Below the pieces are notes generated by a model, which had not been told where the DNA came from, ran no database searches, and was given only the letters and a program-made list of their open reading frames with translations. A stretch of DNA of 64,000 nt from a candidate division WOR-3 bacterium (GTDB lineage: Bacteria > Hydrothermota > Tepidihabitantia > SM23-42 > JAOAFX01): NCBI GenBank assembly GCA_026416055.1, contig JAOAFX010000001.1, positions 5,833 to 69,832 of the forward strand. Reading direction: 5' to 3'. The translations under genes and the position numbers were made by a program. How positions within the stretch are numbered: the first letter of the stretch is position 1; every line of letters starts with the position of its first letter. Positions 1-9,633 of the stretch are shown here, in pieces.

Positions 1-530
1 CAGAGATGGGTGTCAATTATGTTTTTCTTTTGGGGCAATTCCATAATATGAAAATTTACCTTTTGAGATAAAATATCCCAGACCTTCTTTTTTGCATCAC
101 AGGTCGTTTCACCGACGGCGAGGCTCTTGATTGGTGCATAGAGACAGGTTTTGGAAAATGCAAGCCCCAGGGTTGATTTCACGAGCGGGCAGATATCTCT
201 GGGAAACATCTTTTCAGCGTAAGGAACAGAGAAATTCGTTCCCCCGCATAATGCGATTGGAATCATATCGAGTGCCATTATGATTTCTTCTGGTACATAG
301 ATACAGAAAAATCCCACAATCTTTTTACCCTTTGATTTTTCTTCAAGCAGCTCGGCAACCCTACCACCATGCGATTCATGAAGAACATTGTCAAAATAGT
401 CCATTGTCCTGGGACGATTCTTTTGTTTACCAACAGTATTTTGAAATCCTTTGTTTATGTAATTCAGGACCTCATTGTGCAAATTTACATCAAGTCCTAA
501 TTCCTGCCACATCTTTTCGTAATTATTCAT
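1..530 (-). CDS. 2-hydroxyacyl-CoA dehydratase / BcrC-BadD-HgdB family protein, N-terminal part; the gene runs off the left edge
   Basis: Absent from the ORF track because there is no stop in the window. Reverse translation from ATG 530..528 gives MNNYEKMWQELGLDVNLHNEVLNYINKGF...KGKKIVGFFCIYVPEEIIMALDMIPIALCGG...GETTCDAKKK, a pattern typical of HgdB/BcrC-type subunits. Its start overlaps the stop of the upstream gene as ATGA (527..530). Confidence 0.55.
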   Translation of the reverse strand, partial: MNNYEKMWQELGLDVNLHNEVLNYINKGFQNTVGKQKNRPRTMDYFDNVLHESHGGRVAELLEEKSKGKKIVGFFCIYVPEEIIMALDMIPIALCGGTNFSVPYAEKMFPRDICPLVKSTLGLAFSKTCLYAPIKSLAVGETTCDAKKKVWDILSQKVNFHIMELPQKKNIIDTHL

Positions 531-829
531 TTTTTTTCCTTTTTGAAAAATAGTTCGCAAAAACAATGCCCGTCTTTTCTGACTTCTTCATCCAGAGTGG
601 GGCAGGGGCAAAGGACGTCTTTTTCTGGATTTAACGGTTCGCTTTGCTTGCAAGGGCAATAGTATTTTCCATATTCAAGATAGTTTATCGTCATTAAACC
701 AATCACTTTTTTTACCCGGCTTAGCTTTTTGTTAAAGACATAACCTTTCTGCCTCGCGATCTTTATGAGCCTCTCATAATTTTTATTATACTCCTTGGTG
801 CCAACGATTTTATCCCAGGGATTAGGCAT
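527..829 (-). CDS. ferredoxin:thioredoxin reductase catalytic-subunit-like protein (FTR-like disulfide reductase)
   Basis: 100 aa with the cysteine pattern YCPCK...LCPCP...GHCFCELF, matching the CPC...CPC...CHC signature of FTR catalytic subunits. Translationally coupled to both neighbouring ORFs. Confidence 0.55.
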   Translation of the reverse strand: MPNPWDKIVGTKEYNKNYERLIKIARQKGYVFNKKLSRVKKVIGLMTINYLEYGKYYCPCKQSEPLNPEKDVLCPCPTLDEEVRKDGHCFCELFFKKEKK

Positions 830-971
830 AAAGCCCCCTTGCGGTATGGCATTTAAATTCAGTGTATTTGTTTACTGCGAAAAGAATGAATCTCTTATGG
901 AGGTTGGAAGATAAGAATTGCTCTTTTATCTTTCCATAGACCCGACCGGGCCTAAATACCCGGCGGATCAT
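822..971 (-). CDS. mini-ORF A (49 aa, MIRRVFRPGRV...), leader ORF of the FTR-like operon
   Basis: SD AAGGAG lies 7 nt before ATG 971..969. The stop TAA (824..822) overlaps ATG 829 of the next gene. The track start at 1022 lies upstream of the predicted TSS (~1018), so the ORF was trimmed. The N-terminus is shared with mini-ORFs B and C. Confidence 0.35.
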   Translation of the reverse strand: MIRRVFRPGRVYGKIKEQFLSSNLHKRFILFAVNKYTEFKCHTARGLYA

Positions 972-984
972 TTCCAAACTCCTT
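939..984 (-). promoter_or_regulatory. SD-AUG-GC-palindrome module, copy A
   Basis: Minus strand reads AAGGAGTTTGGAAATGATCCGCCGG-N9-CCCGGTCGGGTC. The 12-mer CCCGGTCGGGTC and the 9-nt spacer are the same as in copies B and C. Confidence 0.6.
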
Positions 985-1024
985 TGTAAACCATATTCCA
1001 GTGGGTAATAACTATCATACACAG

Positions 1025-1052
1025 ATTATATTTAAATATTGGTTTATGTCAA
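1025..1052 (-). promoter_or_regulatory. sigma70-type promoter, TTGACA-N16-TATAAT
   Basis: -35 at 1052..1047 and -10 at 1030..1025, both perfect consensus hexamers. Confidence 0.6.
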
Positions 1053-1141
1053 TAGAATGCTTACGATGTTTCCCTACGAGACTTAAGACTAAAGTCTAAT
1101 GATGGCTTGACTGACTTTTTCCTTTTATCTGTCTTGCGAAT

Positions 1142-1891
1142 TCACTTGACAATTCTTCTTTTCACTACCGCCTGAATAACTTCTTTTGTTTCCATATCCT
1201 GGACGAATGCAACAACCCCTAATTTATTGACATTCCAGTTAGACTGAATCAAGCAGTTCCTTTCTTCAATCAGGGAATCAGGATAGACTAAATTCACCGT
1301 TATACCCTTTGCATCCGGAATCATCTTGCGCATTACGAAATAGAAAATGGAATCAGGGGCACCTACCTGTTTGAAAAATACGCTATCTTCAACAAGGACT
1401 ATAAACAACCGATGCTCAGAATCTTTTATTGAATCAATCACAACGATATTTACTTTCAAAGAAACGACATCTCCTTTTAAGGTTGATTCAAGATTCAATC
1501 GCAACTTGGTCTTTCTGTTTCTCTCGCTGATGATGCAATTTTTATAAACTGGGTAATTATCCTCGGGCTTTTCTGTCTGAATTTTTTGCAATCCATCAAA
1601 TACTACAATCGGTGAGGTCTGGATATTATAAAGGGATTCGCGAACTGCAACATAAGGTGGACTTAATGTATCACCGAGGGCACGGCGGTGATAGGCAATT
1701 ACAGCAAGACTATCACCATATTCTTTTAGTAGACTATCAAGCGCATGTTCTGCGTAGGGACAATAAACACAGCGCGCAAAAGTAAAAAACTCAGCAAGGA
1801 CAATCCTGTCTCCTGGTTCAATTTTGATTTGCGGACTGTCAGAGCAGAATGTAATTAATAATATTGCTGTAAAAATTATAGTTTTTTTCAT
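1142..1891 (-). CDS. secreted, possibly lipidated thioredoxin-fold CxxC protein, Omp28-related
   Basis: Signal peptide MKKTIIFTAILLITFCSD. The motif AEFFTFARCVYCPYAEHAL (CxxC) resembles the N-domain of the 595-aa protein two genes upstream. 4-nt overlap with the preceding gene. Confidence 0.55.
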   Translation of the reverse strand: MKKTIIFTAILLITFCSDSPQIKIEPGDRIVLAEFFTFARCVYCPYAEHALDSLLKEYGDSLAVIAYHRRALGDTLSPPYVAVRESLYNIQTSPIVVFDGLQKIQTEKPEDNYPVYKNCIISERNRKTKLRLNLESTLKGDVVSLKVNIVVIDSIKDSEHRLFIVLVEDSVFFKQVGAPDSIFYFVMRKMIPDAKGITVNLVYPDSLIEERNCLIQSNWNVNKLGVVAFVQDMETKEVIQAVVKRRIVK

Positions 1892-2619
1892 TGGACTTTT
1901 ACCACCTTTCTATGAAATATATAGCCATTGTTTTTCAATTCAATGAAATACACGCCTTCCGGAACGGGCTTACCTGAGTGATCATCACCACGCCACACGA
2001 TTTCAGAAGATTGATTACTGGTTATATTGTCAAATCGTTTAATCAGCTGCCCTTTTGAATCAAAAATCTTTATCGAAGGTTGTAATCTTAAATCAGGCAT
2101 CCGGAATTTTATTACGAGGTAATTGTTGAACGGAATTGGATATAATTCAAATTTATAAATCGGGTCCTTCGTTTTGTAGATAAAAACTCCTTGTTCCATT
2201 GCTGCAATAACAGTTATTGAATCCCTTAAATTGGGGCTGCGAACCGATCTTACTTTTAGATTTACAACTTCAGTTCCCCATACTCCGGTTGCAGGGTATA
2301 TTGAAACATCAATTCCTGAATCTATTGCTCCAGGAGTAAGATAACTATAAAGAATTATTCCTGGTTCTGCACATTGTCCACCAGCACAATACAATTCAAA
2401 CCATCCAGGAACGCTATCAATCACCCGACAGTCAAATGCGTAACTATCGGGTTGGGATCCGGTATTCGTGAGCCGGAAACGGAATATAAAATAGTCTATT
2501 CCGGTCTGGAATGTATCACTTACGCAGACAAAGTTGAAACTATACTGGGCAGATAACATCGTGGTGAGCCCAACTAACCACAGTACCACTTTTTTGCCGA
2601 ACATATTAACCTCTTTCAA
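1888..2619 (-). CDS. secreted protein with a T9SS C-terminal sorting domain
   Basis: N-terminal signal peptide. The C-terminus ...PIPFNNYLVIKF...IKIFDSKGQLIKRF...WRGDDHSGKPVPEGVYFIELK... is a typical type-A T9SS/FlgD-Ig-like CTD. Confidence 0.6.
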   Translation of the reverse strand: MKEVNMFGKKVVLWLVGLTTMLSAQYSFNFVCVSDTFQTGIDYFIFRFRLTNTGSQPDSYAFDCRVIDSVPGWFELYCAGGQCAEPGIILYSYLTPGAIDSGIDVSIYPATGVWGTEVVNLKVRSVRSPNLRDSITVIAAMEQGVFIYKTKDPIYKFELYPIPFNNYLVIKFRMPDLRLQPSIKIFDSKGQLIKRFDNITSNQSSEIVWRGDDHSGKPVPEGVYFIELKNNGYIFHRKVVKVQ

Positions 2620-2651
2620 ATGGGGAGGGCAATCGCCCTCCCCATTATTGA

Positions 2652-4439
2652 TTATCGGACAATGACAACCTTTTCCAGAATGGTTTCTGATTCAGATTCT
2701 AATTTCACAAAATATATACCCGAAGGAAGCATCTTGCCATTAGAATCATCGCCATTCCAGATTATCACTGGATTCGCAGTGAGTGATTTAACAAGACGGC
2801 CAGATGCATCGTATATCTTAACGGATACAGACATATTATGAAAATTGCTGGACTGGCAAATTATCGCCACTTTTTCGGTAAATGGATTGGGTGTTATACT
2901 TAAAGTTAACCGCTTATTATTTTCTTTAGTTTCAATTCCTACCGGTCTCGGCATATTCACATCGTCGATATACCATCCTTCCTGGACTATGGAAGCATCG
3001 CTGATAAACCGGAATCTTATTCTCACGGTCTGTCCTGAATAACTGGTAAGGGGATATGACAGTTGAGTCCAGGCACTTTGTGTACCGGTGAATTTACCAA
3101 GGGTTTGCCACCACCCTGAACCATTGTCAATTTCCACATATCCATAATCCCAGCCTGCTTCAAGACTATACTGATGCCAGAGTTTCAAGGAACTATCCGG
3201 TGTTGCAACAAAGAAAACTGAAATCAAAGAAGCATCATTTTGATTTGTGTACTGCCAGGAACCCTCAACCCCGCAATACCAGGAGCGGGTTGGTGAATAA
3301 CTTTTGTATGTCGTGATATGCCAGTTATCATTCGTGCCAGAATGGGTCCAGTTATCCTGACCTGATTCCATATTGTCTGAAAAACCAGGGCTCCTCGTAA
3401 TCATAAAAGGAATCGTATCAATTTTTGAGCCAAAATTCAAAAAGAAAGAAACCAGTCTTGGTGTCGGGCAGGCATCACTGATTGTGAAATCGCAGATATT
3501 TACCGTATCTACATCACCGGGTCTAATTTCTACAGTTTGTGGAGTAGCACCACTAATTGTTATGTATGGATCTGAGCAGGTTACAGTGGTACTACCTGTA
3601 TAAATACCGTCTCTTAAATTTTTGCCATAGACATAAATTCTAATCGCCTCACCGGGCTCAGCCCACCGATTGTGGTTGCCTGCCGTTTCTGTAATATTCA
3701 ATCCGTAATAGTCCATTCCGGGGATGGGCACTATTCCAATCTCTGCACCCTGGTAAATCTCTCTGTTTGCGGCCTGAACAAATACGATAATTTTACAATC
3801 TTTTTCTTTCCAGTTTGAAGCGATTGTGAAGTTTCTGGACCTTGATATACTGCTATTTGCCGGAATGGTAACTGCTTCTCCATTCGCATCCGGCACCATA
3901 TCTCTCATCAAAAATTCTAACTTAGACATTCCCTGCCAGCTATATGGAATATTATTTTCAACAATCACAAAATGGAGTGTGCCACTTATCGGACTGGAAG
4001 TAATGTTCAGAATCGTGGCATTTACCGTTCCGGTATTACTAATCGTATCATAGTTACAGGTGAGACTGATATCCAGTGGACTTGAAATGTTCAACCTGTA
4101 TGCTATAGTGTCTCGGTAAATGGCATACATTGTGCCGAAACGTAAACCTCCGACTACTCTTCGTACTCCATCAAATATTGTTGTTGGATATCCGCTCACA
4201 CTGTAATATGATAATCGTGCTGCAGCCTCGGTACTATAGAATGGGTCGGATGTGGATGGATGGTAAGATATTACTACAACTGAATCATAACTTCTTGTAT
4301 AATTCTCATCCAGCGCACGCGCTGCTCCTGGACAGTATTGACACCAGGTTGCAGTAAAATTTTCACATACGACAACGCGCTGGGCAGCAAAGGCTAAGGT
4401 ACCTATTATTATACATGATAATAGCACTATTTTCTTCAT
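2652..4439 (-). CDS. multidomain T9SS cargo: Omp28-like thioredoxin-fold CxxC domain, Ig-like and MAM/choice-of-anchor-like beta-sandwich, T9SS CTD
   Basis: Signal peptide, then ENFTATWCQYCPGAARAL (CxxC). The middle reads ...FSDNMESGQDNWTH...GWYIDDV. The C-terminus ...ITPNPFTEKVAI...VKIYDASGRLVKSL...WNGDDSNGKMLPSGIYFVKL is a T9SS CTD. SD GGAGG precedes ATG 4439. Confidence 0.6.
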   Translation of the reverse strand: MKKIVLLSCIIIGTLAFAAQRVVVCENFTATWCQYCPGAARALDENYTRSYDSVVVISYHPSTSDPFYSTEAAARLSYYSVSGYPTTIFDGVRRVVGGLRFGTMYAIYRDTIAYRLNISSPLDISLTCNYDTISNTGTVNATILNITSSPISGTLHFVIVENNIPYSWQGMSKLEFLMRDMVPDANGEAVTIPANSSISRSRNFTIASNWKEKDCKIIVFVQAANREIYQGAEIGIVPIPGMDYYGLNITETAGNHNRWAEPGEAIRIYVYGKNLRDGIYTGSTTVTCSDPYITISGATPQTVEIRPGDVDTVNICDFTISDACPTPRLVSFFLNFGSKIDTIPFMITRSPGFSDNMESGQDNWTHSGTNDNWHITTYKSYSPTRSWYCGVEGSWQYTNQNDASLISVFFVATPDSSLKLWHQYSLEAGWDYGYVEIDNGSGWWQTLGKFTGTQSAWTQLSYPLTSYSGQTVRIRFRFISDASIVQEGWYIDDVNMPRPVGIETKENNKRLTLSITPNPFTEKVAIICQSSNFHNMSVSVKIYDASGRLVKSLTANPVIIWNGDDSNGKMLPSGIYFVKLESESETILEKVVIVR

Positions 4440-4466
4440 TTTAACCTCCTTTCTTTATTTTAAGTG

Positions 4467-4694
4467 CTATTGATTTTTAATTTTTTTTCTCTTATCACCC
4501 CCTTTCGTTCTGGTCAATTCGTGATTGATCAAAGGAATGATTGTATTAATTTTTGGAATACGATATTTTAAATATTTTTTAAAAAGTTCGTAAAGAATTT
4601 CGATGGAATGTTGATTGGTATTTAATAAAGGAGGTTGATTAAAATTATGGCATCTTTTTTTGACCCGACCGGGTCTTTTAATCCGGCGAGTCAT
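4467..4694 (-). CDS. mini-ORF B (75 aa, MTRRIKRPGRV...)
   Basis: SD GGAGG lies 6 nt before ATG 4694. This ATG overlaps the TGA of mini-ORF C (ATGA). The body is lysine-rich and low-complexity, with no recognisable family. Confidence 0.3.
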   Translation of the reverse strand: MTRRIKRPGRVKKRCHNFNQPPLLNTNQHSIEILYELFKKYLKYRIPKINTIIPLINHELTRTKGGDKRKKIKNQ

Positions 4695-4705
4695 TTGATG
4701 CCTCC
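4662..4705 (-). promoter_or_regulatory. SD-AUG-GC-palindrome module, copy B
   Basis: Minus strand reads GGAGGCATCAAATGACTCGCCGG-N9-CCCGGTCGGGTC. With the preceding GA it forms the 14-bp near-palindrome GACCCGGTCGGGTC. Confidence 0.6.
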
Positions 4706-4810
4706 GTTGAAGTATTTGATATAGTGTGGAATATTTAAGATTAACGCAGTGGAGTAGACAATGTAGTATGGTACTTTGACCCGACCGGGTCCGGATGTCC
4801 GTCGAGTCAT
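4691..4810 (-). CDS. mini-ORF C (39 aa, MTRRTSGPGRV...), below the track's size cut-off
   Basis: SD AAGGAG lies 7 nt before ATG 4810..4808. My translation is MTRRTSGPGRVKVPYYIVYSTALILNIPHYIKYFNGGIK*, ending in a TGA that overlaps the ATG of mini-ORF B. Confidence 0.3.
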   Translation of the reverse strand: MTRRTSGPGRVKVPYYIVYSTALILNIPHYIKYFNGGIK

Positions 4811-4823
4811 TTCCACACTCCTT
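4778..4823 (-). promoter_or_regulatory. SD-AUG-GC-palindrome module, copy C
   Basis: Minus strand reads AAGGAGTGTGGAAATGACTCGACGG-N9-CCCGGTCGGGTC. Confidence 0.6.
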
Positions 4824-4863
4824 TATTGTGATTTTTCCAGAAGTCTATCCAATTCACATTTTA

Positions 4864-4891
4864 ATTATATTAAAATTTTCTTTGTTGTCAA
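4864..4891 (-). promoter_or_regulatory. sigma70-type promoter, TTGACA-N16-TATAAT
   Basis: -35 at 4891..4886 and -10 at 4869..4864, both perfect consensus. It would drive mini-ORFs C and B and the T9SS/CxxC operon. Confidence 0.6.
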
Positions 4892-4921
4892 GCAGTCAAA
4901 GTAAATTGCCAAATAATGACT

Positions 4922-4987
4922 ACTCTCCGCTTTTTAGTTTAATGTTTTTTTGTTTTCCAGCAGGGGCGACTTCCCGGTCGCGATAAT
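4922..4987 (+). repeat. 66-nt intergenic repeat, copy 1 (inverted repeat GCGAC-N6-GTCGC followed by GATAAT)
   Basis: Aligns with 25091..25152 with 4 substitutions and one 4-nt indel (my hand alignment). Confidence 0.7.
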
Positions 4988-5002
4988 CATCTGTCCATCC
5001 CT

Positions 5003-5200
5003 TTGACAAAAGGGAATTTTCAGTATGAAAACAGTCTTCACCCAGCGGGTAATCAATTTTTAAACAAACCTGATGATTACGGCCTAACTATCTTTGGGTG
5101 CATTGGCGCTATTTCCTATGGCGAATTACCAATGTCTTGTTTTACTTGTAATGGCAGAGTTTACGAGGAAGTAGATGGGATTATTAATTTTTTAAACTAA
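5003..5200 (+). CDS. hypothetical 65-aa ORF; the C-terminus resembles a Trm112-like zinc-ribbon remnant
   Basis: TTG start. The ending ...SCFTCNGRVYEEVDGIINFLN resembles the C..C...Y...DGI..FL ribbon found at the N-terminus of some methyltransferases, but no MTase domain follows. Weak call. Confidence 0.2.
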   Translation: MTKGNFQYENSLHPAGNQFLNKPDDYGLTIFGCIGAISYGELPMSCFTCNGRVYEEVDGIINFLN

Positions 5201-5370
5201 GAATATCCAGCCGATAGTCTATCTTTCACCCTATAATACTTATACGCCCAAAAAATAATAATATTCTTGATTTTTAAAAGTGGAGAGGAGCCAGGTCAAA
5301 ATATCAGGCAATATATTTAAAAGTGTGAAAATTTATCTAAAGTGCTATATCGGGAAGTAATAATCTTCAG

Positions 5371-7176
5371 TTAGTCATGAGTTCCTTTTGAATTGATGAT
5401 TTTCAAATAACGGTATAATTGTGCCCTTGATATCTTTAATTCATTGCAGGTTTTAATTACATCACACCCATTCCGCTGATAACATTCAAAAATGAGTTTT
5501 GCCCGATACCTTCTTACCTTCTCTTCTATTGAAACTGGCTGATGATTTTCCAGACCAAGGTCTTTTAATTCAATATAGCCATTTTTGCAGCGCAAAAATG
5601 CCTGTTCTAATATTTTTTCAAGCTGGCGGACATTTCCGGGAAAATCAAATTCTAACAGACGTTTCTTTGCACTTTCGGTTATGCCAGCAAAATACCCTCT
5701 ATATCTTTCTTTTATTTTAAGCAACAGATGCTCAATCAAAAGAGGAATTTCATCCCGGCGCTCACGAAGAGGTGGAATTTCAATTTTGGGAGAGTGAATC
5801 CGGTAATATAAATCTTCTCTGAATTTACCCTGTGCTACAAGTTCCTCAAGGTTGCGATTGGTGGCAAAAATAAATCGGACATTGACAACCCTGCCCTCAT
5901 TACAACCCAGGGGGATTACCTTTTTATCCTCAATCACTCTTAAAAGTTTTGCCTGTACATTGAGCGGTAACTCAGCAATTTCATCAAAGAATAGTGTACC
6001 ATTATTGGCAAATTCAATCTTTCCTGTTTTGTCATAACGGGCATCGGTGAAGGCACCCCTTTTATAGCCAAACAATTCTGACTCAAACAGGTTCTCTGGA
6101 ATAGCTGCACAGTTCACCACCACAAATCTTTCACCCGCCCGTGAACTTTCATTGTGAATTGCGGCAGCAAGCAGATCTTTTCCGGTGCCACTTTCTCCAA
6201 TGATCAAGAGATTTGTATCCTGGATAGCAATTTTTTTCGCAGTCTCTTTTATTGTTTCAAGCCCGATTATATCGTCAAATGTATAAGGGGCACGCAACGA
6301 TAAACTTCTTTCTTTATTAACGGGAGAATATACCGGTTCAAAAATAAAGATGTATTTGTCTTCATATTCCTTTTTTAATACAAAAAACTTCATATGCAAA
6401 TTTTCTGATTCAAATATTTCGTTGATAATTGGTTTTTTTCTTACAATTTCCTCGTCAAATTTTTCCGTGATGTTCTTTCCAGTATTGAAATGTAGAAGTT
6501 TCTTTGCCTTCTCGCTGAGCCAGAGTATCTTTCCCTGATTATCAGTAATCACAAAAATGAGATTGAGCAATTTCGCCAGATCAGTATAAAAATTGAATTC
6601 AAATGTCTTCCGGTATTCTTTCTGAATTATTCCGGAAAGAATCTTCACAAGGGCAAAGGTATAAGGATGTCCCCTTTTTTCCGGATGGACGATCACAATC
6701 GTGCCAAGCAATTCTCCATTGTCCAGTATCGGTGAACAAAAACAGGCACCCGATTGAAAAATTTTTAGATAATATTCTTCCCCTTCTACATATACTGGCT
6801 TGTGATAACGCAGGGCAAGGGCAACGGCATTGGTCCCAGCATCTTCTTCGCGCAGTGACCCCCCCTCACCAAGACCAATTTTACTGCGGCTTTGTAAGAT
6901 GTGCCTGGGACCGATTGCCTTCAAAATATAGCCATCCCTGTCTGTTAATACCAGAATTGATCCGCAGAGTTTGAAAGTTTCGCTGCACAATTTCATATAC
7001 GGAAGGGCGGATTTTATTAAGGATTCATTAATTTTCTGGCGGTGGAGTAATTCTGAACGGCTGAGAGTATTTGTAATACATGGCTTATCGGGGTTCAAAC
7101 CCATTTTCTTACAACGTCTCTTAGACTCATTTATCCATCTTTTTCTTTCAGATGATTCAGACATAACTCCAACCAC
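5371..7176 (-). CDS. sigma-54-dependent transcriptional activator (AcoR-like GAF N-domain, AAA+ domain, Fis-type HTH)
   Basis: GESGTGKDLLAAAIH...VVVNCAAIPENLFESELFGYKRGAFTDA is the sigma-54 interaction domain. The C-terminal ISRAQLYRYLK is an HTH. The start may instead be ATG 7164 (MSESSERKRW). Confidence 0.85.
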   Translation of the reverse strand: MVGVMSESSERKRWINESKRRCKKMGLNPDKPCITNTLSRSELLHRQKINESLIKSALPYMKLCSETFKLCGSILVLTDRDGYILKAIGPRHILQSRSKIGLGEGGSLREEDAGTNAVALALRYHKPVYVEGEEYYLKIFQSGACFCSPILDNGELLGTIVIVHPEKRGHPYTFALVKILSGIIQKEYRKTFEFNFYTDLAKLLNLIFVITDNQGKILWLSEKAKKLLHFNTGKNITEKFDEEIVRKKPIINEIFESENLHMKFFVLKKEYEDKYIFIFEPVYSPVNKERSLSLRAPYTFDDIIGLETIKETAKKIAIQDTNLLIIGESGTGKDLLAAAIHNESSRAGERFVVVNCAAIPENLFESELFGYKRGAFTDARYDKTGKIEFANNGTLFFDEIAELPLNVQAKLLRVIEDKKVIPLGCNEGRVVNVRFIFATNRNLEELVAQGKFREDLYYRIHSPKIEIPPLRERRDEIPLLIEHLLLKIKERYRGYFAGITESAKKRLLEFDFPGNVRQLEKILEQAFLRCKNGYIELKDLGLENHQPVSIEEKVRRYRAKLIFECYQRNGCDVIKTCNELKISRAQLYRYLKIINSKGTHD

Positions 7177-7343
7177 CTGTTGAATTTATTTTTTTAGAGA
7201 ATCAACCATAAAAAAAGTATGTATAAGGCACCGGTATTTAAATTCAGTATAGATTACTATACTACCAGACGGGGCCTTATACTAAGGAAAGATTATACAT
7301 ATAAGTTGTGCATTGTCAATATACACCTATTAGCCTAAAAAAA

Positions 7344-7952
7344 TTACTTATAACTAAAGACAGCATAATTTCTTTCTCTATCTCCGCGCCGATAAGAGTA
7401 GAAATAATCTGGATTACAATATGTACAATAATTCAATTCAGCAATAAGATTTTCCTTTCCCAGTTCCTGTAGCACAGCCTTTTTTAAATCAAGATAGATC
7501 TTATTATATTTTCTTATCACTGCCTCCGGATATTTCTCACTGAATAGCCTTGCAACATCATTTTTGACTTCATAACAGCAGGGTCCAATACAGGCACCCA
7601 TGACATATTTATACTCCCTCATAATGGTCAGAGCTTTTGCCAGAATTCCTCTGATGATTGAACGCCATCCACAATGAAGAAGCATAATTTTTTCCTGAGA
7701 AAAGATATAAACTGGAAGACAGTCAGCAACCTTTACACCGATTGACTTACTTGATGTCATCAGCCCATCACCAGTGGTCTTTGTATCGGTATCAATATCT
7801 ACAATGATATCTGAATGAATCTGGGTAAGTAACGCGGGCTTAAAGGTATACAAAAATTTCTGCGTTCCAACCTTTGTTGAATAAAGAAAAATTTTATTTT
7901 CAAATTCACAACGAAAATACTTTAAATTCTCATCTTCAATTAACTGCCACAT
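7344..7952 (-). CDS. pgeF: peptidoglycan editing factor PgeF / YfiH (DUF152 laccase-domain) family
   Basis: VADCLPV...LLHCGWRS...CIGPCCYEV...CTYCNPDYFYSYRR motifs. Confidence 0.7.
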   Translation of the reverse strand: MWQLIEDENLKYFRCEFENKIFLYSTKVGTQKFLYTFKPALLTQIHSDIIVDIDTDTKTTGDGLMTSSKSIGVKVADCLPVYIFSQEKIMLLHCGWRSIIRGILAKALTIMREYKYVMGACIGPCCYEVKNDVARLFSEKYPEAVIRKYNKIYLDLKKAVLQELGKENLIAELNYCTYCNPDYFYSYRRGDRERNYAVFSYK

Positions 7953-9633
7953 TTTTTAATTCCTTAATCTTTAACATTATCTTTTTTTTGCCGACGAGTG
8001 AATCTTCAAATATTGTATACAAACAATCAATTCGAGTCTTTCCAGGCACCATTGTCATTATCTTATCCGCGTGATAAAAGGCGATTGCGGGAAACACGAC
8101 TCTTTCCTGGCGCAACGAGAATTTCAAGTGATCACTGCCCACTACCACAGGAACACCTACAACTTCAAAATTTTCACCCAAAAATACTGGCTGGGGGTTC
8201 TCCATTCCGGTGGGTTCAAAATATTTCAAAAAATAAACAATCTCTTCATTTATATCCTTCAAATCAAGCTTTATATCATAATAATGGCGCTTCATAAAAA
8301 TATGCTCATCAAATCCCTGTGCGTATTGATTTATCTTCTCAACAAAGGAATCTAAGTTGCTTTTAGAAAGTTCCAACCCTGCTGCCTGTTTATGCCCGCC
8401 GAATTTCATTAACAGGTCAGCACAGAAGTTCAGTGCCTCCGCAATATCAAATCCACTGACCGAACGGGCTGAGCCCTTGGCGATTTTTTCTTTTAATGTC
8501 AGAACTATCGCTGGTTTTGCATACTCCTCAACAATTCTTGATGCTACAATGCCGACAACGCCTTCATGCCAGTTTTCTTTACCCAGGACTATGACTCGCT
8601 TATCATACAGATGTTTTGCCTCAATCATATTAACTGCCTCCTGTAGAATTTCATCTTCCACTTTCTGGCGTTTTTCATTATCGGCCGAAAGTTCCTGGGC
8701 AAGTAAACAGGCCTTTTGATAGTCATCGGTAAGTAAAAGTTCTAAAGCCGCCTTTGCATCACGTAATCTACCACAGGCATTTATCCTTGGCCCGATTATG
8801 AACCCGAGATGGTATGCAGTCAGTTCACCCTTCAGGCCGGAAACTTTTATCAGTGCCTGGATACCCGCCTTTTTACTTTTCTGCATCTTTTTTAACCCGA
8901 GTTTTACCAGATAACGATTTTCCCCGGTCAAAGGTACTACATCAACCACACTGCCCAATGCAACAAGGTCAAGGTCGGAGAGAAGTTCTGCCTCATCAAG
9001 ACAGAGCTTCCGGTAAATACCCTGGAGAAATTTAAAAACTACTCCAACCCCGGCAAGTTCTTTGAATGGATAATTACAGTGGGCCAATTTAGGATTGAGT
9101 AATGCGTCAACAACCGGAATTTCCGATTTCGGATTGTGATGGTCACAGATTATCACATCTAAATTCTTTGATTTCGCATAGTTCAGCTCTTCAAATGCAG
9201 TAATGCCACAATCAACAGTAATCATCAGTGTGCATCCATTCTGCAGGGCATATTCAATCCCCAATTTTGAAACCCCGTAACCTTCTATAAGGCGGTGGGG
9301 AATATAACAATACACATCTAATCCAAGTTTTTTAAAATTTCTGTATAACATAGCCATACCTGTTATTCCATCGGCATCATAATCACCGTGGATTAATATC
9401 CTTTCTTTTCTTTCAAGTGCCTTTTCAATCCTTGCCACTGCTTTTTCCATATCTGAAAACATGAATGGGTCATGAAGTTCTGCAGGAGTTGGCGCAAAGA
9501 ATGTTTCTATCTCCTGGGCAGTCTTATACCCCCGATTTTTTAAAATTTGAACTATTACGGCAGGAATTCTCTTGCCCCGGATGATGAGATCTTCACCGAC
9601 CTCACCCTGATGTTTACCCACCCAGATAGACAT
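7936..9633 (-). CDS. recJ: single-stranded-DNA-specific exonuclease RecJ
   Basis: 565 aa with the DHH motifs ILIHGDYDADGITG, VDCG and ICDHH, plus a DHHA1 region. Confidence 0.85.
   Translation of the reverse strand: MSIWVGKHQGEVGEDLIIRGKRIPAVIVQILKNRGYKTAQEIETFFAPTPAELHDPFMFSDMEKAVARIEKALERKERILIHGDYDADGITGMAMLYRNFKKLGLDVYCYIPHRLIEGYGVSKLGIEYALQNGCTLMITVDCGITAFEELNYAKSKNLDVIICDHHNPKSEIPVVDALLNPKLAHCNYPFKELAGVGVVFKFLQGIYRKLCLDEAELLSDLDLVALGSVVDVVPLTGENRYLVKLGLKKMQKSKKAGIQALIKVSGLKGELTAYHLGFIIGPRINACGRLRDAKAALELLLTDDYQKACLLAQELSADNEKRQKVEDEILQEAVNMIEAKHLYDKRVIVLGKENWHEGVVGIVASRIVEEYAKPAIVLTLKEKIAKGSARSVSGFDIAEALNFCADLLMKFGGHKQAAGLELSKSNLDSFVEKINQYAQGFDEHIFMKRHYYDIKLDLKDINEEIVYFLKYFEPTGMENPQPVFLGENFEVVGVPVVVGSDHLKFSLRQERVVFPAIAFYHADKIMTMVPGKTRIDCLYTIFEDSLVGKKKIMLKIKELKNVAVN

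What the first reader, a model, noticed from the sequence alone, without database searches (positions are those of the whole stretch)
896..1052. Third copy of the module heads the FTR-like/dehydratase operon, and each copy has its own anti-SD complement
Copy A reads AAGGAGTTTGGAAATGATCCGCCGG-N9-CCCGGTCGGGTC at 984..939. It lies about 35 nt downstream of a perfect promoter (1052..1025). In the transcript, the SD segment GGAGUUUGGAA (982..972) can pair 10/11 with UUCCAACCUCC (909..899), enclosing the AUG and the GC core. In copy B the SD-overlapping GGCAUC (4702..4697) pairs with GAUGCC (4654..4649), and a CCUCC lies at 4634..4630. In copy C, GGAGUG (4821..4816) pairs with UACUCC (4756..4751), and GUGUGG pairs with CCAUAC. 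The three SD-flanking sequences differ, but each has a matching partner 45-70 nt downstream. That is the pattern expected for a conserved SD-sequestering helix, meaning translational control by a riboregulator or thermosensor-like element. Both operons carrying the module encode thiol/disulfide chemistry (an FTR-like reductase and Omp28-like CxxC proteins), which hints at a shared redox-linked regulon.
Basis: inference. Interest (0 to 1): 0.65.

Follow-up and report, generated by a model that had tools for sequence, protein, structure and literature searches.

The report
Selenocysteine-signal leader before a thiol-enzyme operon
The repeated GC-rich module is a short RNA leader in which a tiny upstream reading frame ends in a UGA stop overlapping the next start codon, followed by a hairpin like this bacterium's own selenocysteine-insertion signals. 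It probably lets selenium supply decide whether selenium-free backup enzymes and selenium-linked genes are made.

Summary
The conserved core is not an SD-sequestering helix. It is a fixed unit:
- a consensus sigma-70 promoter;
- a 16-codon ORF that starts at the predicted transcription start;
- its UGA stop overlapping the AUG of a second small ORF (AUGA);
- exactly 20 nt;
- a 5-7 bp hairpin with an invariant GGUC loop.

In 43 non-redundant copies from one class of candidate division WOR-3, the stem covaries while UGA, spacing and loop never change. Two genuine selenoprotein genes in this genome carry the same UGA-N20-stem-GGUC geometry. The second ORF stays open until it overlaps the next module or the first structural gene.

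The leader precedes a small regulon: Cys-type Omp28-like proteins (the genome also has Sec-type paralogues), the FTR-like/double-cubane-reductase operon, and a methyltransferase. It often lies beside selA/selB.

Best reading (inferred): a selenium sensor. Either the UGA is read as Sec, a dead end, or translation terminates and re-initiates at AUG, switching the operon on.

The anti-SD complement exists but is weak. It is found in about half the copies and is largely explained by a conserved C-rich, G-poor tract that could equally be a Rho loading site.

The parts
1025..1052 (-). Sigma-70 promoter of leader A (TTGACA 1052..1047, 16-nt spacer, TATAAT 1030..1025)
   Evidence: 12/12 consensus match. 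The same promoter geometry recurs in about 29 promoter-proximal copies in relatives.
968..1018 (-). uORF1: 16 codons (MIVITHWNMVYKGVWK) plus a UGA stop. The A of its ATG (1018) is the 7th nt after the -10 hexamer, so the ORF is predicted to be leaderless.
   Evidence: Sequence. In about 27/29 promoter-proximal copies an ATG or GTG lies 5-9 nt (mostly 6) after the -10 and opens a 13-16-codon frame that ends at this UGA. The other two frames are closed.
979..983 (-). Shine-Dalgarno AGGAG of sORF2, inside uORF1, 7 nt before the AUG (spacer 978..972)
   Evidence: GG.G is nearly invariant at this fixed position in alignments A1/A3.
968..971 (-). AUGA overlap: AUG of sORF2 (971..969) and UGA stop of uORF1 (970..968)
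   Evidence: UGA is invariant in 43/43 copies. The first letter is A, G or U, never C.
937..954 (-). SECIS-like hairpin UAGGCCC-GGUC-GGGUCUA (7 bp, loop 947..944). The loop lies at nt 24-27 counted from the U of UGA.
   Evidence: Folds alone at -10.2 kcal/mol, like the genome's real SECIS tips at -9.2 to -10.2. RNAalifold consensus shows 4/5 pairs with compensatory changes. 33 cells have double-sided changes, with 0/500 shuffles as high. Two real Sec genes share the UGA-N20-GGUC geometry.
939..969 (-). Alternative long hairpin. The 5' arm GAUCCGCCGGGU, starting at the G of AUG, pairs with GCCCGG-U-CGGGUC. This structure excludes the SECIS tip and buries the AUG/UGA.
   Evidence: Present in the MFE fold. 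79% of cells are paired across 43 copies, with weak covariation.
822..971 (-). sORF2 (49 codons, MIRRVFRPGRV...). Its stop TAA (824..822) overlaps codons 2-3 of the FTR-like gene.
   Evidence: The AUG-frame ORF stays open for 18-166 codons in all copies (37-166 in the first 26), with unconserved sequence. It ends at the next module's UGA or within about -77..+27 nt of the downstream start in most copies. The UGA frame closes after 2-26 codons in all copies but one (12-26 in the first 26).
881..931 (-). C-rich, G-poor tract after the hairpin.
   Evidence: At +40..+90 over 43 copies, C is 20-29% and G is 7-10%. CUCC/CCUC is enriched. It pairs with the SD in the MFE fold.
527..829 (-). FTR-like gene (FeThRed_B), Cys-type
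   Evidence: Pfam PF02943, 55 bits. Best NCBIfam match is the FtrB family double-selenoprotein NF041072, below cut-off.
3..530 (-). Start of the double-cubane-cluster reductase gene (ATGA overlap with the FTR-like stop). The gene continues off the window.
   Evidence: NF040772, 450.8 bits, over cut-off. Followed on the contig by an activase, a porin-like protein, an SSS transporter, an ArsM/DVU_1556-like methyltransferase and a YdjY-domain protein.
4691..4891 (-). Leader copy C: promoter 4891..4864, uORF1 from GTG 4857 to UGA 4809..4807, AUG 4810, hairpin 4791..4778, and sORF-C ending at UGA 4693..4691
4467..4694 (-). Leader copy B, in tandem with C. Its AUG (4694..4692) overlaps the UGA of sORF-C. 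Hairpin 4675..4662. sORF-B ends 27 nt before the Omp28-like gene.
1142..4439 (-). Operon of Cys-type (CxxC) Omp28-like and T9SS proteins controlled by copies C+B
   Evidence: Pfam Omp28 and Por_Secre_tail. Best NCBIfam match is the Omp28-related selenoprotein NF045500, below cut-off. Sec-type UxxC paralogues lie elsewhere in the genome.

Best explanation
Copy A is one member of a conserved 'SECIS leader'.

Shown by the analysis:
- A consensus promoter is followed, at the predicted +1, by a 16-codon ORF whose UGA stop overlaps the AUG of a second small ORF.
- Exactly 20 nt after the UGA lies a covarying stem with an invariant GGUC loop. This matches the selenocysteine-insertion signals of real selenoprotein genes in the same genome.
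- The second ORF is kept open until it overlaps the FTR-like gene.
- The leader marks a regulon made of Cys-type paralogues of selenoproteins and genes clustered with selA/selB.

Inferred mechanism:
- In free RNA, the AUG/UGA and the SD are buried by the long hairpin and by the downstream C-rich tract.
- A ribosome translating the leaderless uORF1 opens them and arrives at the UGA. This frees the small GGUC hairpin at the mRNA entrance.
- With selenium, SelB-GTP-Sec-tRNASec binds the hairpin. The UGA is read as Sec, or the start is simply blocked. The ribosome runs on in a dead-end frame for 12-26 codons, and sORF2 is not translated.
- Without selenium, the ribosome terminates at the UGA and re-initiates at the overlapping AUG. 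sORF2 is translated up to the FTR-like start, which couples translation of the operon. It may also cover a Rho-loading tract.
- Net effect: the operon is on when Sec-tRNASec is scarce.
For: - Geometry and covariation. UGA, the N20 spacer and the GGUC loop are invariant in 43 copies. 6 of 7 stem pairs show double-sided changes, with 0/500 shuffles as high. RNAalifold independently predicts the hairpin.
- The hairpin acts on the sense-strand RNA. G-U pairs occur, and the loop is asymmetric.
- Same geometry in real Sec genes. In G000, UGA-N20-(>=5 bp)-GGUC occurs 6 times: 3 leaders, 2 genuine selenoprotein genes and 1 other site. Hairpin stabilities match.
- Sec machinery is present. selA-selB-tRNASec lie on contig C80.
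- uORF1 and sORF2 architecture is conserved while their sequences are not.
- Regulon content. The leader precedes FTR-like, double-cubane reductase, Omp28-like CxxC and methyltransferase genes across 18 genera. Their best family matches are selenoprotein families.
- Sec/Cys pairing. G000 has three UxxC Sec paralogues of the Omp28-like proteins. Across the genus, Cys versions sit at leader loci and TGA versions sit elsewhere.
- Neighbourhood. In the complete genome G028 a tandem leader heads a same-strand cluster ending in SelA-SelB. selB lies 3-17 kb downstream in the same orientation in 6 genomes.
- Confident hits fall in SelB-positive genomes.
- Precedent. The E. coli selAB SECIS-like operator is cited in PMC13449736. 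Selenium limitation raises the Cys-type fdhF in Treponema primitia (PMC3892789).
- Rho is encoded in G000, and the tract after the hairpin is C-rich and G-poor.
Against: - No experimental data exist.
- The direction of regulation is inferred only from ORF architecture and paralogue logic.
- sORF2 has a strong SD and could initiate independently.
- Bacterial Sec insertion is usually inefficient, so decoding alone would make a weak switch.
- In one relative (L054) the UGA frame runs in frame into the FTR-like gene, so read-through would still make the protein.
- No Sec-type FtrB paralogue exists in the genus, so the 'backup' logic does not explain this operon.
- G010 has a Cys-type Omp28-like gene without a leader.
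- G009 has leaders but no selB in its assembly. It does keep TGA-containing Omp28 genes, so this is probably an assembly gap.
- No Rfam SECIS model matches the hairpin.
- There is no bulged U as in E. coli fdhF.
Confidence: 0.55

Rival explanations
1. SelB operator without decoding, as in the E. coli selAB leader. The hairpin is only a binding site. The SelB-GTP-Sec-tRNASec complex sits on it, 19 nt after the sORF2 start codon, and sterically blocks initiation or re-initiation. The UGA serves only as the uORF1 stop for coupling.
For: There is a precedent for a SECIS-like element repressing translation next to an SD. The hairpin is adjacent to the start site. The outcome is the same as in the main model, namely off when selenium is available. 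It does not depend on efficient Sec insertion.
Against: The spacing UGA-N20-loop is exactly that of real Sec codons in this genome and is invariant in 43 copies. A pure operator would not need this. In tandem copies the UGA is always in frame with the preceding ORF.
Confidence: 0.2
2. An SD-sequestering helix (riboregulator or RNA thermometer, possibly redox-linked) is the regulatory element, and the GC core is merely a stable enclosed stem.
For: The SD:anti-SD helix is in the MFE folds of the window's leaders. CUCC/CCUC is enriched at +36..+80. There is a slight own-partner preference, p = 0.018.
Against: The pairing is not better than dinucleotide shuffles (p = 0.10). It is weak or absent in about half the copies, including FTR-type orthologues. 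It is explained by a general C-rich, G-poor tract. The model does not explain the invariant UGA, the N20 spacer, the GGUC loop, uORF1 or the link to selenium.
Confidence: 0.07
3. uORF1 plus Sec plus the 12-26-codon extension is a genuine small selenoprotein of about 30-43 aa. The downstream ORF arrangement is incidental.
For: There is an in-frame UGA with a canonical SECIS geometry.
Against: Nothing in that frame is conserved outside the nucleotides that form the hairpin. Its length is what chance gives in AT-rich DNA. Three copies occur in one genome, always in front of the same operons.
Confidence: 0.05
4. The conserved element acts as a peptide (N-terminus MTRRxFRPGRV as an arrest or leader peptide) or as a DNA palindrome (GACCCG..CGGGTC) bound by a transcription factor.
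For: There is an apparent peptide motif within the genus. The stem is palindromic.
Against: In divergent copies the codons change (GLGRV, RAGRL, RHGRV and others) while base pairing is kept. Within the genus there is no synonymous variation. G-U pairs and the strictly asymmetric GGUC centre fit RNA on the sense strand, not a symmetric DNA site.
Confidence: 0.04

Closest known systems
Bacterial SECIS element (SelB-dependent, E. coli fdhF type)
   Same: A UGA in an open frame is followed at a fixed short distance by a stem-loop whose apical loop carries conserved G-U (GGUC). The lower part of the structure includes the UGA and must melt when the ribosome arrives. The geometry is identical to two real Sec genes in this genome. 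The review PMC8659212 gives the E. coli rules: a 17-nt upper stem-loop, G23/U24 in the loop, 11 nt from the UGA.
   Different: It sits in a 13-16-codon leader ORF, not in an enzyme gene. The frame after the UGA is unconserved and closes after 12-26 codons. The UGA overlaps a start codon with its own SD. There is no bulged U. The loop is 2 nt further from the UGA than in E. coli. No Rfam SECIS model matches.
SECIS-like element in the E. coli selAB 5' leader (Thanbichler and Bock 2002, EMBO J; PMC139081, cited in PMC13449736)
   Same: A SECIS-like hairpin beside a ribosome-binding site is used for regulation rather than for making a selenoprotein. In E. coli the reported readout is the SelB-GTP-Sec-tRNASec complex. 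In some relatives here the regulated cluster also ends in selA-selB.
   Different: Here the hairpin comes with a correctly spaced in-frame UGA, a leaderless uORF, an AUGA overlap, a coupled second ORF and tandem copies. It controls a multi-operon regulon: Cys paralogues of selenoproteins, and a reductase/methyltransferase/transporter operon.
Leader-ORF sensors of translation status (trpL-type attenuators, tnaC with a Rho site, prfB autoregulation at UGA); named from general knowledge
   Same: A short leader ORF contains a codon whose decoding rate or outcome reports the supply of one translation factor or charged tRNA. The outcome decides whether downstream genes are expressed. A C-rich, G-poor tract follows the ORF, as with the tnaC rut site.
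   Different: The sensed species would be Sec-tRNASec/SelB at a recoded stop codon. No intrinsic terminator is present in leader A. The output is proposed to be termination and re-initiation in a different frame.
Selenium-dependent choice between Sec and Cys isoenzymes (Treponema primitia fdhF Sec/Cys, PMC3892789; Methanococcus Cys homologues, from memory)
   Same: An organism carries Sec and Cys paralogues of the same protein and raises the Cys form when selenium is scarce. Here three UxxC Omp28 paralogues are paired with leader-controlled CxxC paralogues.
   Different: In those systems the cis mechanism for the Cys gene is transcriptional or unknown. Here a defined RNA element is present in front of the Cys genes.
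   Same: The SD can pair with a downstream CCUCC-type sequence in the window's three leaders.
   Different: The pairing is not conserved or covarying across the family. The conserved core is elsewhere. No ROSE or fourU match was found in Rfam.

Membership tests
Bacterial SECIS element | UGA codon in frame with an upstream translated ORF | tested here: met
   The UGA ends a 13-16-codon ORF from the predicted +1, or ends the preceding sORF in tandem copies, in essentially all copies. Translation itself has not been shown.
Bacterial SECIS element | Stem-loop at a fixed short distance 3' of the UGA | tested here: met
   UGA-N20-loop in 43/43 copies. Two real selenoprotein genes of G000 share this spacing. 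In E. coli the loop is at nt 22-25 and here at 24-27 (for the E. coli numbering).
Bacterial SECIS element | Apical loop with conserved G and U contacted by SelB | tested here: met
   The GGUC loop is invariant. The same GGUC loop occurs in the HdrA, C104 and C112 SECIS elements, and GGUAC occurs in two Omp28 selenoprotein genes.
Bacterial SECIS element | Stem maintained by compensatory changes | tested here: met
   6/7 pairs show double-sided changes, in 33 cells, with 0/500 shuffles as high. Slid controls give 21-49% pairing against 86% observed. RNAalifold agrees.
Bacterial SECIS element | Bulged U in the upper stem (E. coli U17) | tested here: not met
   The stem is a continuous 5-7 bp. The genome's own real SECIS tips also lack the bulge, so this is probably a lineage feature.
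Bacterial SECIS element | The reading frame continues past the UGA into a conserved, functional protein | tested here: not met
   The UGA frame closes after 2-26 codons (12-26 in the first 26 copies) and has no conservation outside the hairpin. The one exception is L054, which runs in frame into the FTR-like gene.
Bacterial SECIS element | Match to curated SECIS covariance models | tested here: not met
   An Rfam 15 scan of 1..8000 at E<=5 gave no match.
Bacterial SECIS element | SelB binding and Sec insertion | not testable with these tools
   This needs binding assays and 75Se labelling or mass spectrometry.
selAB-type SECIS-like translational operator | SECIS-like hairpin in a leader next to the SD or start of the regulated cistron | tested here: met
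   The hairpin starts 17-19 nt after the sORF2 AUG, and the SD lies 7 nt upstream of it (spacer 978..972).
selAB-type SECIS-like translational operator | The regulated genes are the Sec machinery | tested here: inconclusive
   In G028 the same-strand cluster ends in SelA-SelB. In L020 it is followed by SelB and SelD. In G000 selA-selB lie on another contig, C80.
Leader-peptide transcription attenuator | Intrinsic terminator/antiterminator alternative after the leader ORF | tested here: not met
   No minus-strand terminator-like site lies between 971 and 829. Rho-dependent termination on the C-rich tract remains possible.
SD-sequestering riboregulator or thermometer | Conserved, covarying SD:anti-SD helix | tested here: inconclusive
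   The helix is present in the window's folds. At family level there is enrichment (p = 1.4e-4). It is not better than dinucleotide shuffles (p = 0.10) and is weak in about half the copies.

The most novel reading that the evidence does not exclude
This would be a natural recoding-based selenium sensor. A leaderless mini-ORF ends in a UGA that is either decoded as selenocysteine (a dead end) or used for termination and re-initiation at an overlapping AUG. The sensor occurs singly or as tandem stages. It switches on a selenium-starvation regulon when Sec-tRNASec/SelB is scarce. That regulon comprises Cys paralogues of secreted selenoproteins, a double-cubane reductase/methyltransferase/transporter operon and, in some lineages, selA-selB themselves. 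Rho may act on the C-rich tract as a second output.
Probability: 0.5. Interest if true: 0.9.

Novelty: new variant of a known kind. Interest (0 to 1): 0.78.

Why it matters
How bacteria sense selenium, and how they choose between selenoproteins and their cysteine paralogues, is largely unknown at the mechanistic level. The one defined cis element is the E. coli selAB SECIS-like operator.

This leader would be a compact, sequence-defined sensor that uses the Sec-decoding machinery itself as the detector, and it makes the question directly testable with reporters.

It also does three further things:
- It defines a selenium regulon in an uncultured phylum.
- It links the double-cubane-cluster reductases, whose physiological substrate is unknown, and an ArsM/DVU_1556-like methyltransferase to selenium metabolism.
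- It offers a portable selenium-responsive switch and a search pattern (NUGA-N20-stem-GGUC after an SD) for annotation pipelines, which now miscall these small ORFs.

Tried and rejected
- Rfam scan of 1..8000 at E<=5: no family matched.
- Peptide reading (MTRRxFRPGRV): rejected. The genus shows no synonymous variation, and divergent copies change the residues while keeping the base pairs. Pfam found nothing for the three small ORFs.
- DNA-palindrome operator: rejected because of G-U pairs, the asymmetric invariant loop, and the fixed orientation relative to UGA and promoter.
- Long hairpin (5' arm from the G of AUG) as the conserved structure: only 79% paired with little covariation. Several tandem copies have a broken 5' arm but an intact tip. 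It is kept as an alternative, mutually exclusive fold.
- Strict-pattern scan of 185,579 species genomes: only WOR-3 and unnamed MAGs matched, plus chance or unrelated hits in high-GC genomes. These include a conserved planctomycete element.
- Covariance-model search of the phylum: no hit outside one class.
- Search for a Sec-type FtrB paralogue in the genus: none found. The 'Cys backup' logic therefore holds for the Omp28 operon but not for the FTR-like operon.
- G010 Cys-type Omp28-like gene: no leader found even with filters off.
- SelD: not found in G000 by tblastn. The assembly is 85% complete.
- Relation between the UGA-frame stop position and the anti-SD position: no consistent pattern, by inspection.
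Full report
**1. Observation**

On the minus strand, copy A reads AAGGAGTTTGGAAATGATCCGCCGG-N9-CCCGGTCGGGTC at 984..939. The 12-mer CCCGGTCGGGTC occurs exactly three times in the window, at 939, 4662 and 4778. Allowing up to 2 mismatches there are 7 matches against 1.3 expected. It occurs nowhere else in the 2.1-Mb, 163-contig genome.

Both promoters, 1052..1025 and 4891..4864, are 12/12 matches to TTGACA-16-TATAAT. The genes downstream of copy A are an FTR-like protein (PF02943) and an HGD-D-family protein. Copies C and B precede two Omp28-like CxxC proteins and T9SS cargo proteins.

**2. What the conserved core is**

A pattern search in 61 relatives, and then in 185,579 species genomes, found the module only in candidate division WOR-3 MAGs and unnamed relatives. 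Within the genus, the 3' half AGACCCGGTCGGGTC shows no synonymous change, although the genome is 39% G+C. Several tandem copies have a mutated 5' arm (MTPHQF, MTHHTY, MTHWIF) but an intact 3' half. This pointed to a nucleotide-level element centred on GACCC-GGUC-GGGUC.

I built a covariance model from 25 copies and searched 132 genomes of the class. It found hits in 33 genomes of 18 genera. In the divergent hits the stem covaries:
- GACUC/GAGUC
- GAGCC/GGCUC
- GACAC/GUGUC
- GACGC/GCGUC
- GACCU/AGGUC
- AACCC/GGGUU
- GGCUC/GAGCC

Three things never change: the UGA, the 20-nt spacer and the GGUC loop.

On 43 non-redundant copies, the five inner pairs are almost always formed. Six of seven pairs show double-sided changes, in 33 cells, and none of 500 shuffles reaches this. 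Slid controls drop to 21-49% pairing. RNAalifold predicts the same hairpin on its own. G-U pairs and the asymmetric loop show that the structure acts as sense-strand RNA. The amino acids encoded across the hairpin are not conserved.

No hit was found outside this class among 272 genomes of the phylum.

**3. Why it is SECIS-like**

The genome has selA-selB-tRNASec on contig C80. A scan for in-frame UGA followed by a GGUC-loop hairpin found three selenoprotein genes:
- HdrA.
- Two T9SS-sorted proteins with a C-U motif. Their signal is UGA-N20-GGCGAA-GGUC-UUCGCC, the same loop and the same spacing as the module.

Across the whole genome, UGA-N20-(>=5 bp)-GGUC occurs six times: the three leaders, these two genes, and one other site. 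Other spacings give 0-5 occurrences. The isolated tips fold at -8.5 to -10.2 kcal/mol for the leaders and -9.2 to -10.2 for the real signals.

The E. coli rules are an upper stem-loop 11 nt from the UGA with G23/U24 in the loop and a bulged U17 (PMC8659212). They are met except for the bulge and a 2-nt offset. The organism's own signals lack the bulge too. No Rfam model matches.

**4. The ORF architecture**

The invariant 'ATGA' is a start codon overlapping a stop codon. The first letter is A, G or U, never C. The SD sits at a fixed distance upstream.

- **uORF1.** In about 27 of 29 promoter-proximal copies, an ATG or GTG lies 5-9 nt (mostly 6) after the -10 hexamer. That is the expected transcription start. 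From there a 13-16-codon frame runs open to this UGA, while the other two frames are closed. In copy A this is ATG 1018 to UGA 970..968. In copy C the start is GTG 4857.
- **Tandem copies.** The UGA is the stop of the preceding small ORF.
- **AUG frame after the module.** It stays open for 18-166 codons (37-166 in the first 26 copies) with unconserved sequence. It ends at the next module's UGA or close to the downstream start. In copy A the TAA at 824..822 overlaps codons 2-3 of the FTR-like gene. In most orthologues the overlap is 20 nt.
- **UGA frame.** It closes after 12-26 codons, about what chance gives.

The region therefore contains a chain of coupled small ORFs with a recoding-type signal at each junction.

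**5. The regulon and its tie to selenium**

The leader precedes only a few gene types across genera: the FTR-like gene, the double-cubane reductase, Omp28-like CxxC proteins, one methyltransferase family, and one unknown family of 150-160 aa.

Downstream of copy A, the contig encodes:
- the FTR-like protein (best NCBIfam match: FtrB double-selenoprotein, below cut-off);
- a double-cubane-cluster reductase (NF040772, 451 bits);
- its activase;
- a porin-like protein;
- a sodium/solute symporter;
- an ArsM/DVU_1556-like methyltransferase;
- a YdjY-domain protein.

The Omp28-like proteins match the Omp28-related selenoprotein family best. The genome also carries three UxxC (Sec) paralogues on other contigs. 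Across the genus, Cys versions sit at leader loci and TGA versions elsewhere. One Cys gene, in G010, has no leader.

In the complete genome G028, a tandem leader heads a same-strand cluster. Its order is: FTR-like gene, methyltransferase, corrinoid protein, MtaA-like protein, HGD-like proteins, activase, SelA, SelB. In L020 the operon is followed by SelB and SelD. selB lies 3-17 kb downstream in the same orientation in six genomes.

Confident leader hits occur in 21 of 48 SelB-positive genomes. They occur in 1 of 13 genomes without a SelB hit. That one genome (G009) still has TGA-containing Omp28 genes, so its selB is probably unassembled. No Sec-type FtrB exists in the genus.

**6.

The helix is part of the minimum-free-energy fold of leader A (-38.6 kcal/mol, z = -2.3) and of leader C+B (z = -3.3). 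Across 43 copies the signal is modest:
- Duplex energy is -9.06 kcal/mol, against -7.53 for the next window (p = 0.01).
- Against dinucleotide shuffles it is -9.06 versus -8.40 (p = 0.10).
- Own-versus-cross pairing gives p = 0.018.
- Several FTR-type orthologues have no good partner.

CUCC/CCUC is enriched at +36..+80, in 22/43 copies against 5/43 and 7/43 in the following windows. However, this lies inside a conserved tract with C at 20-29% and G at 7-10%. The tract can act as an anti-SD, as a Rho loading site (Rho is encoded), or as both. The long hairpin that starts at the G of AUG competes with the SECIS tip for the same 3' strand.

**7. Mechanism (inferred)**

Free RNA hides the SD and the AUG. 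A ribosome translating the leaderless uORF1 opens them and stops at the UGA, with the GGUC tip at the mRNA entrance.

- **With Sec-tRNASec-SelB.** The UGA is decoded, or the site is occupied. The ribosome leaves in a dead-end frame.
- **Without it.** The ribosome terminates and re-initiates at the overlapping AUG. It translates sORF2 into the start of the FTR-like gene and covers the C-rich tract.

The operon is therefore on when selenium is scarce. Tandem modules would sharpen the response.

The direction of regulation rests on two observations: the kept-open AUG frame, and the Sec/Cys paralogue pairs. It also fits two precedents: the E. coli selAB operator, and the T. primitia Sec/Cys fdhF pair, where selenium limitation raises the Cys form.

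Caveats:
- sORF2 has its own SD.
- Sec insertion is usually inefficient.
- In L054 the UGA frame runs into the FTR-like gene.
- There are no expression data.

**8. Comparison and novelty**

The element meets the structural definition of a bacterial SECIS, but it is not in a selenoprotein gene. It works like the selAB SECIS-like operator and like leader-ORF sensors, but it combines features that neither has:
- an in-frame UGA;
- a leaderless uORF;
- a start/stop overlap;
- tandem stages;
- a multi-operon regulon.

Four literature searches found no description of such a leader.

Noticed in passing
G000 contigs C104 (minus strand, UGA at reverse-strand offset 14889) and C112 (plus strand, offset 14081), outside the window: Two ~650-aa T9SS-sorted proteins have an in-frame UGA in a C-U motif (TAHTCUGAS and RSYGCUPGH) and a UGA-N20-GGCGAA-GGUC-UUCGCC signal. 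They are apparently secreted selenoproteins. The C104 protein matched no NCBIfam family beyond the T9SS sorting domain; the C112 protein was not scanned.
   Followed up: partly
G000 contigs C72:18808-19527, C104:3922-4641 and C22:6181-6879, outside the window: Three Omp28-related selenoprotein paralogues carry UxxC where the window's proteins have CxxC. Two of them use a GGUAC loop 21 nt after the UGA.
   Followed up: partly
L063 (G028:C1:447000-461500), minus strand: A tandem leader heads a cluster in this order: FTR-like, ArsM/DVU_1556-like methyltransferase, B12-binding corrinoid protein, MtaA/URO-D-like methyltransferase, HGD-D-like proteins, activase, SelA, SelB. This suggests a corrinoid-dependent methyl-transfer system tied to selenium supply.
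   Followed up: partly
L054 (G088) 95..450: This is a compact variant. sORF2 is only 18 codons and its TAA overlaps the FTR-like start as in copy A. The UGA frame runs in frame into the FTR-like gene, so Sec read-through would give an N-terminally extended protein.
   Followed up: no
L004 and L011 (G008): The two leaders of this genome, one before the Omp28-like gene and one before the FTR-like gene, share an identical ~110-nt promoter, uORF1 and hairpin. They diverge right after GGGTC, which suggests recent duplication or gene conversion of the module as a unit.
   Followed up: no
L019, L023, L024, L030 (Planctomycetota and unnamed MAGs): A ~130-nt stretch containing ATGATGCTCCTGATCCTGAGACCCGGTCGGGTCTGGTTGTCCTGAG is nearly identical in four high-GC genomes. 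It has no SD or promoter context like the leader and is probably an unrelated conserved element.
   Followed up: no
window 527..530: The FTR-like stop and the double-cubane reductase start also overlap as ATGA, the ordinary form of translational coupling, with no hairpin after it.
   Followed up: no
window 4467..4520, and the equivalent position in L005, L013, L017: The C-terminal part of the sORF-B type ORFs keeps a K-G-G-D-x-R/K motif, encoded by an SD-like AAAGGGGGTGATAA about 40-70 nt before the Omp28-like start. This may be a further ribosome-binding or pausing site.
   Followed up: no
G016, G017, G019, G044 (relatives): These genomes carry two full-length selB genes. In G017 and G019 the second copy lies on the leader contig a few kb downstream of the leader operon. 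It may be a dedicated or regulatory SelB paralogue.
   Followed up: no
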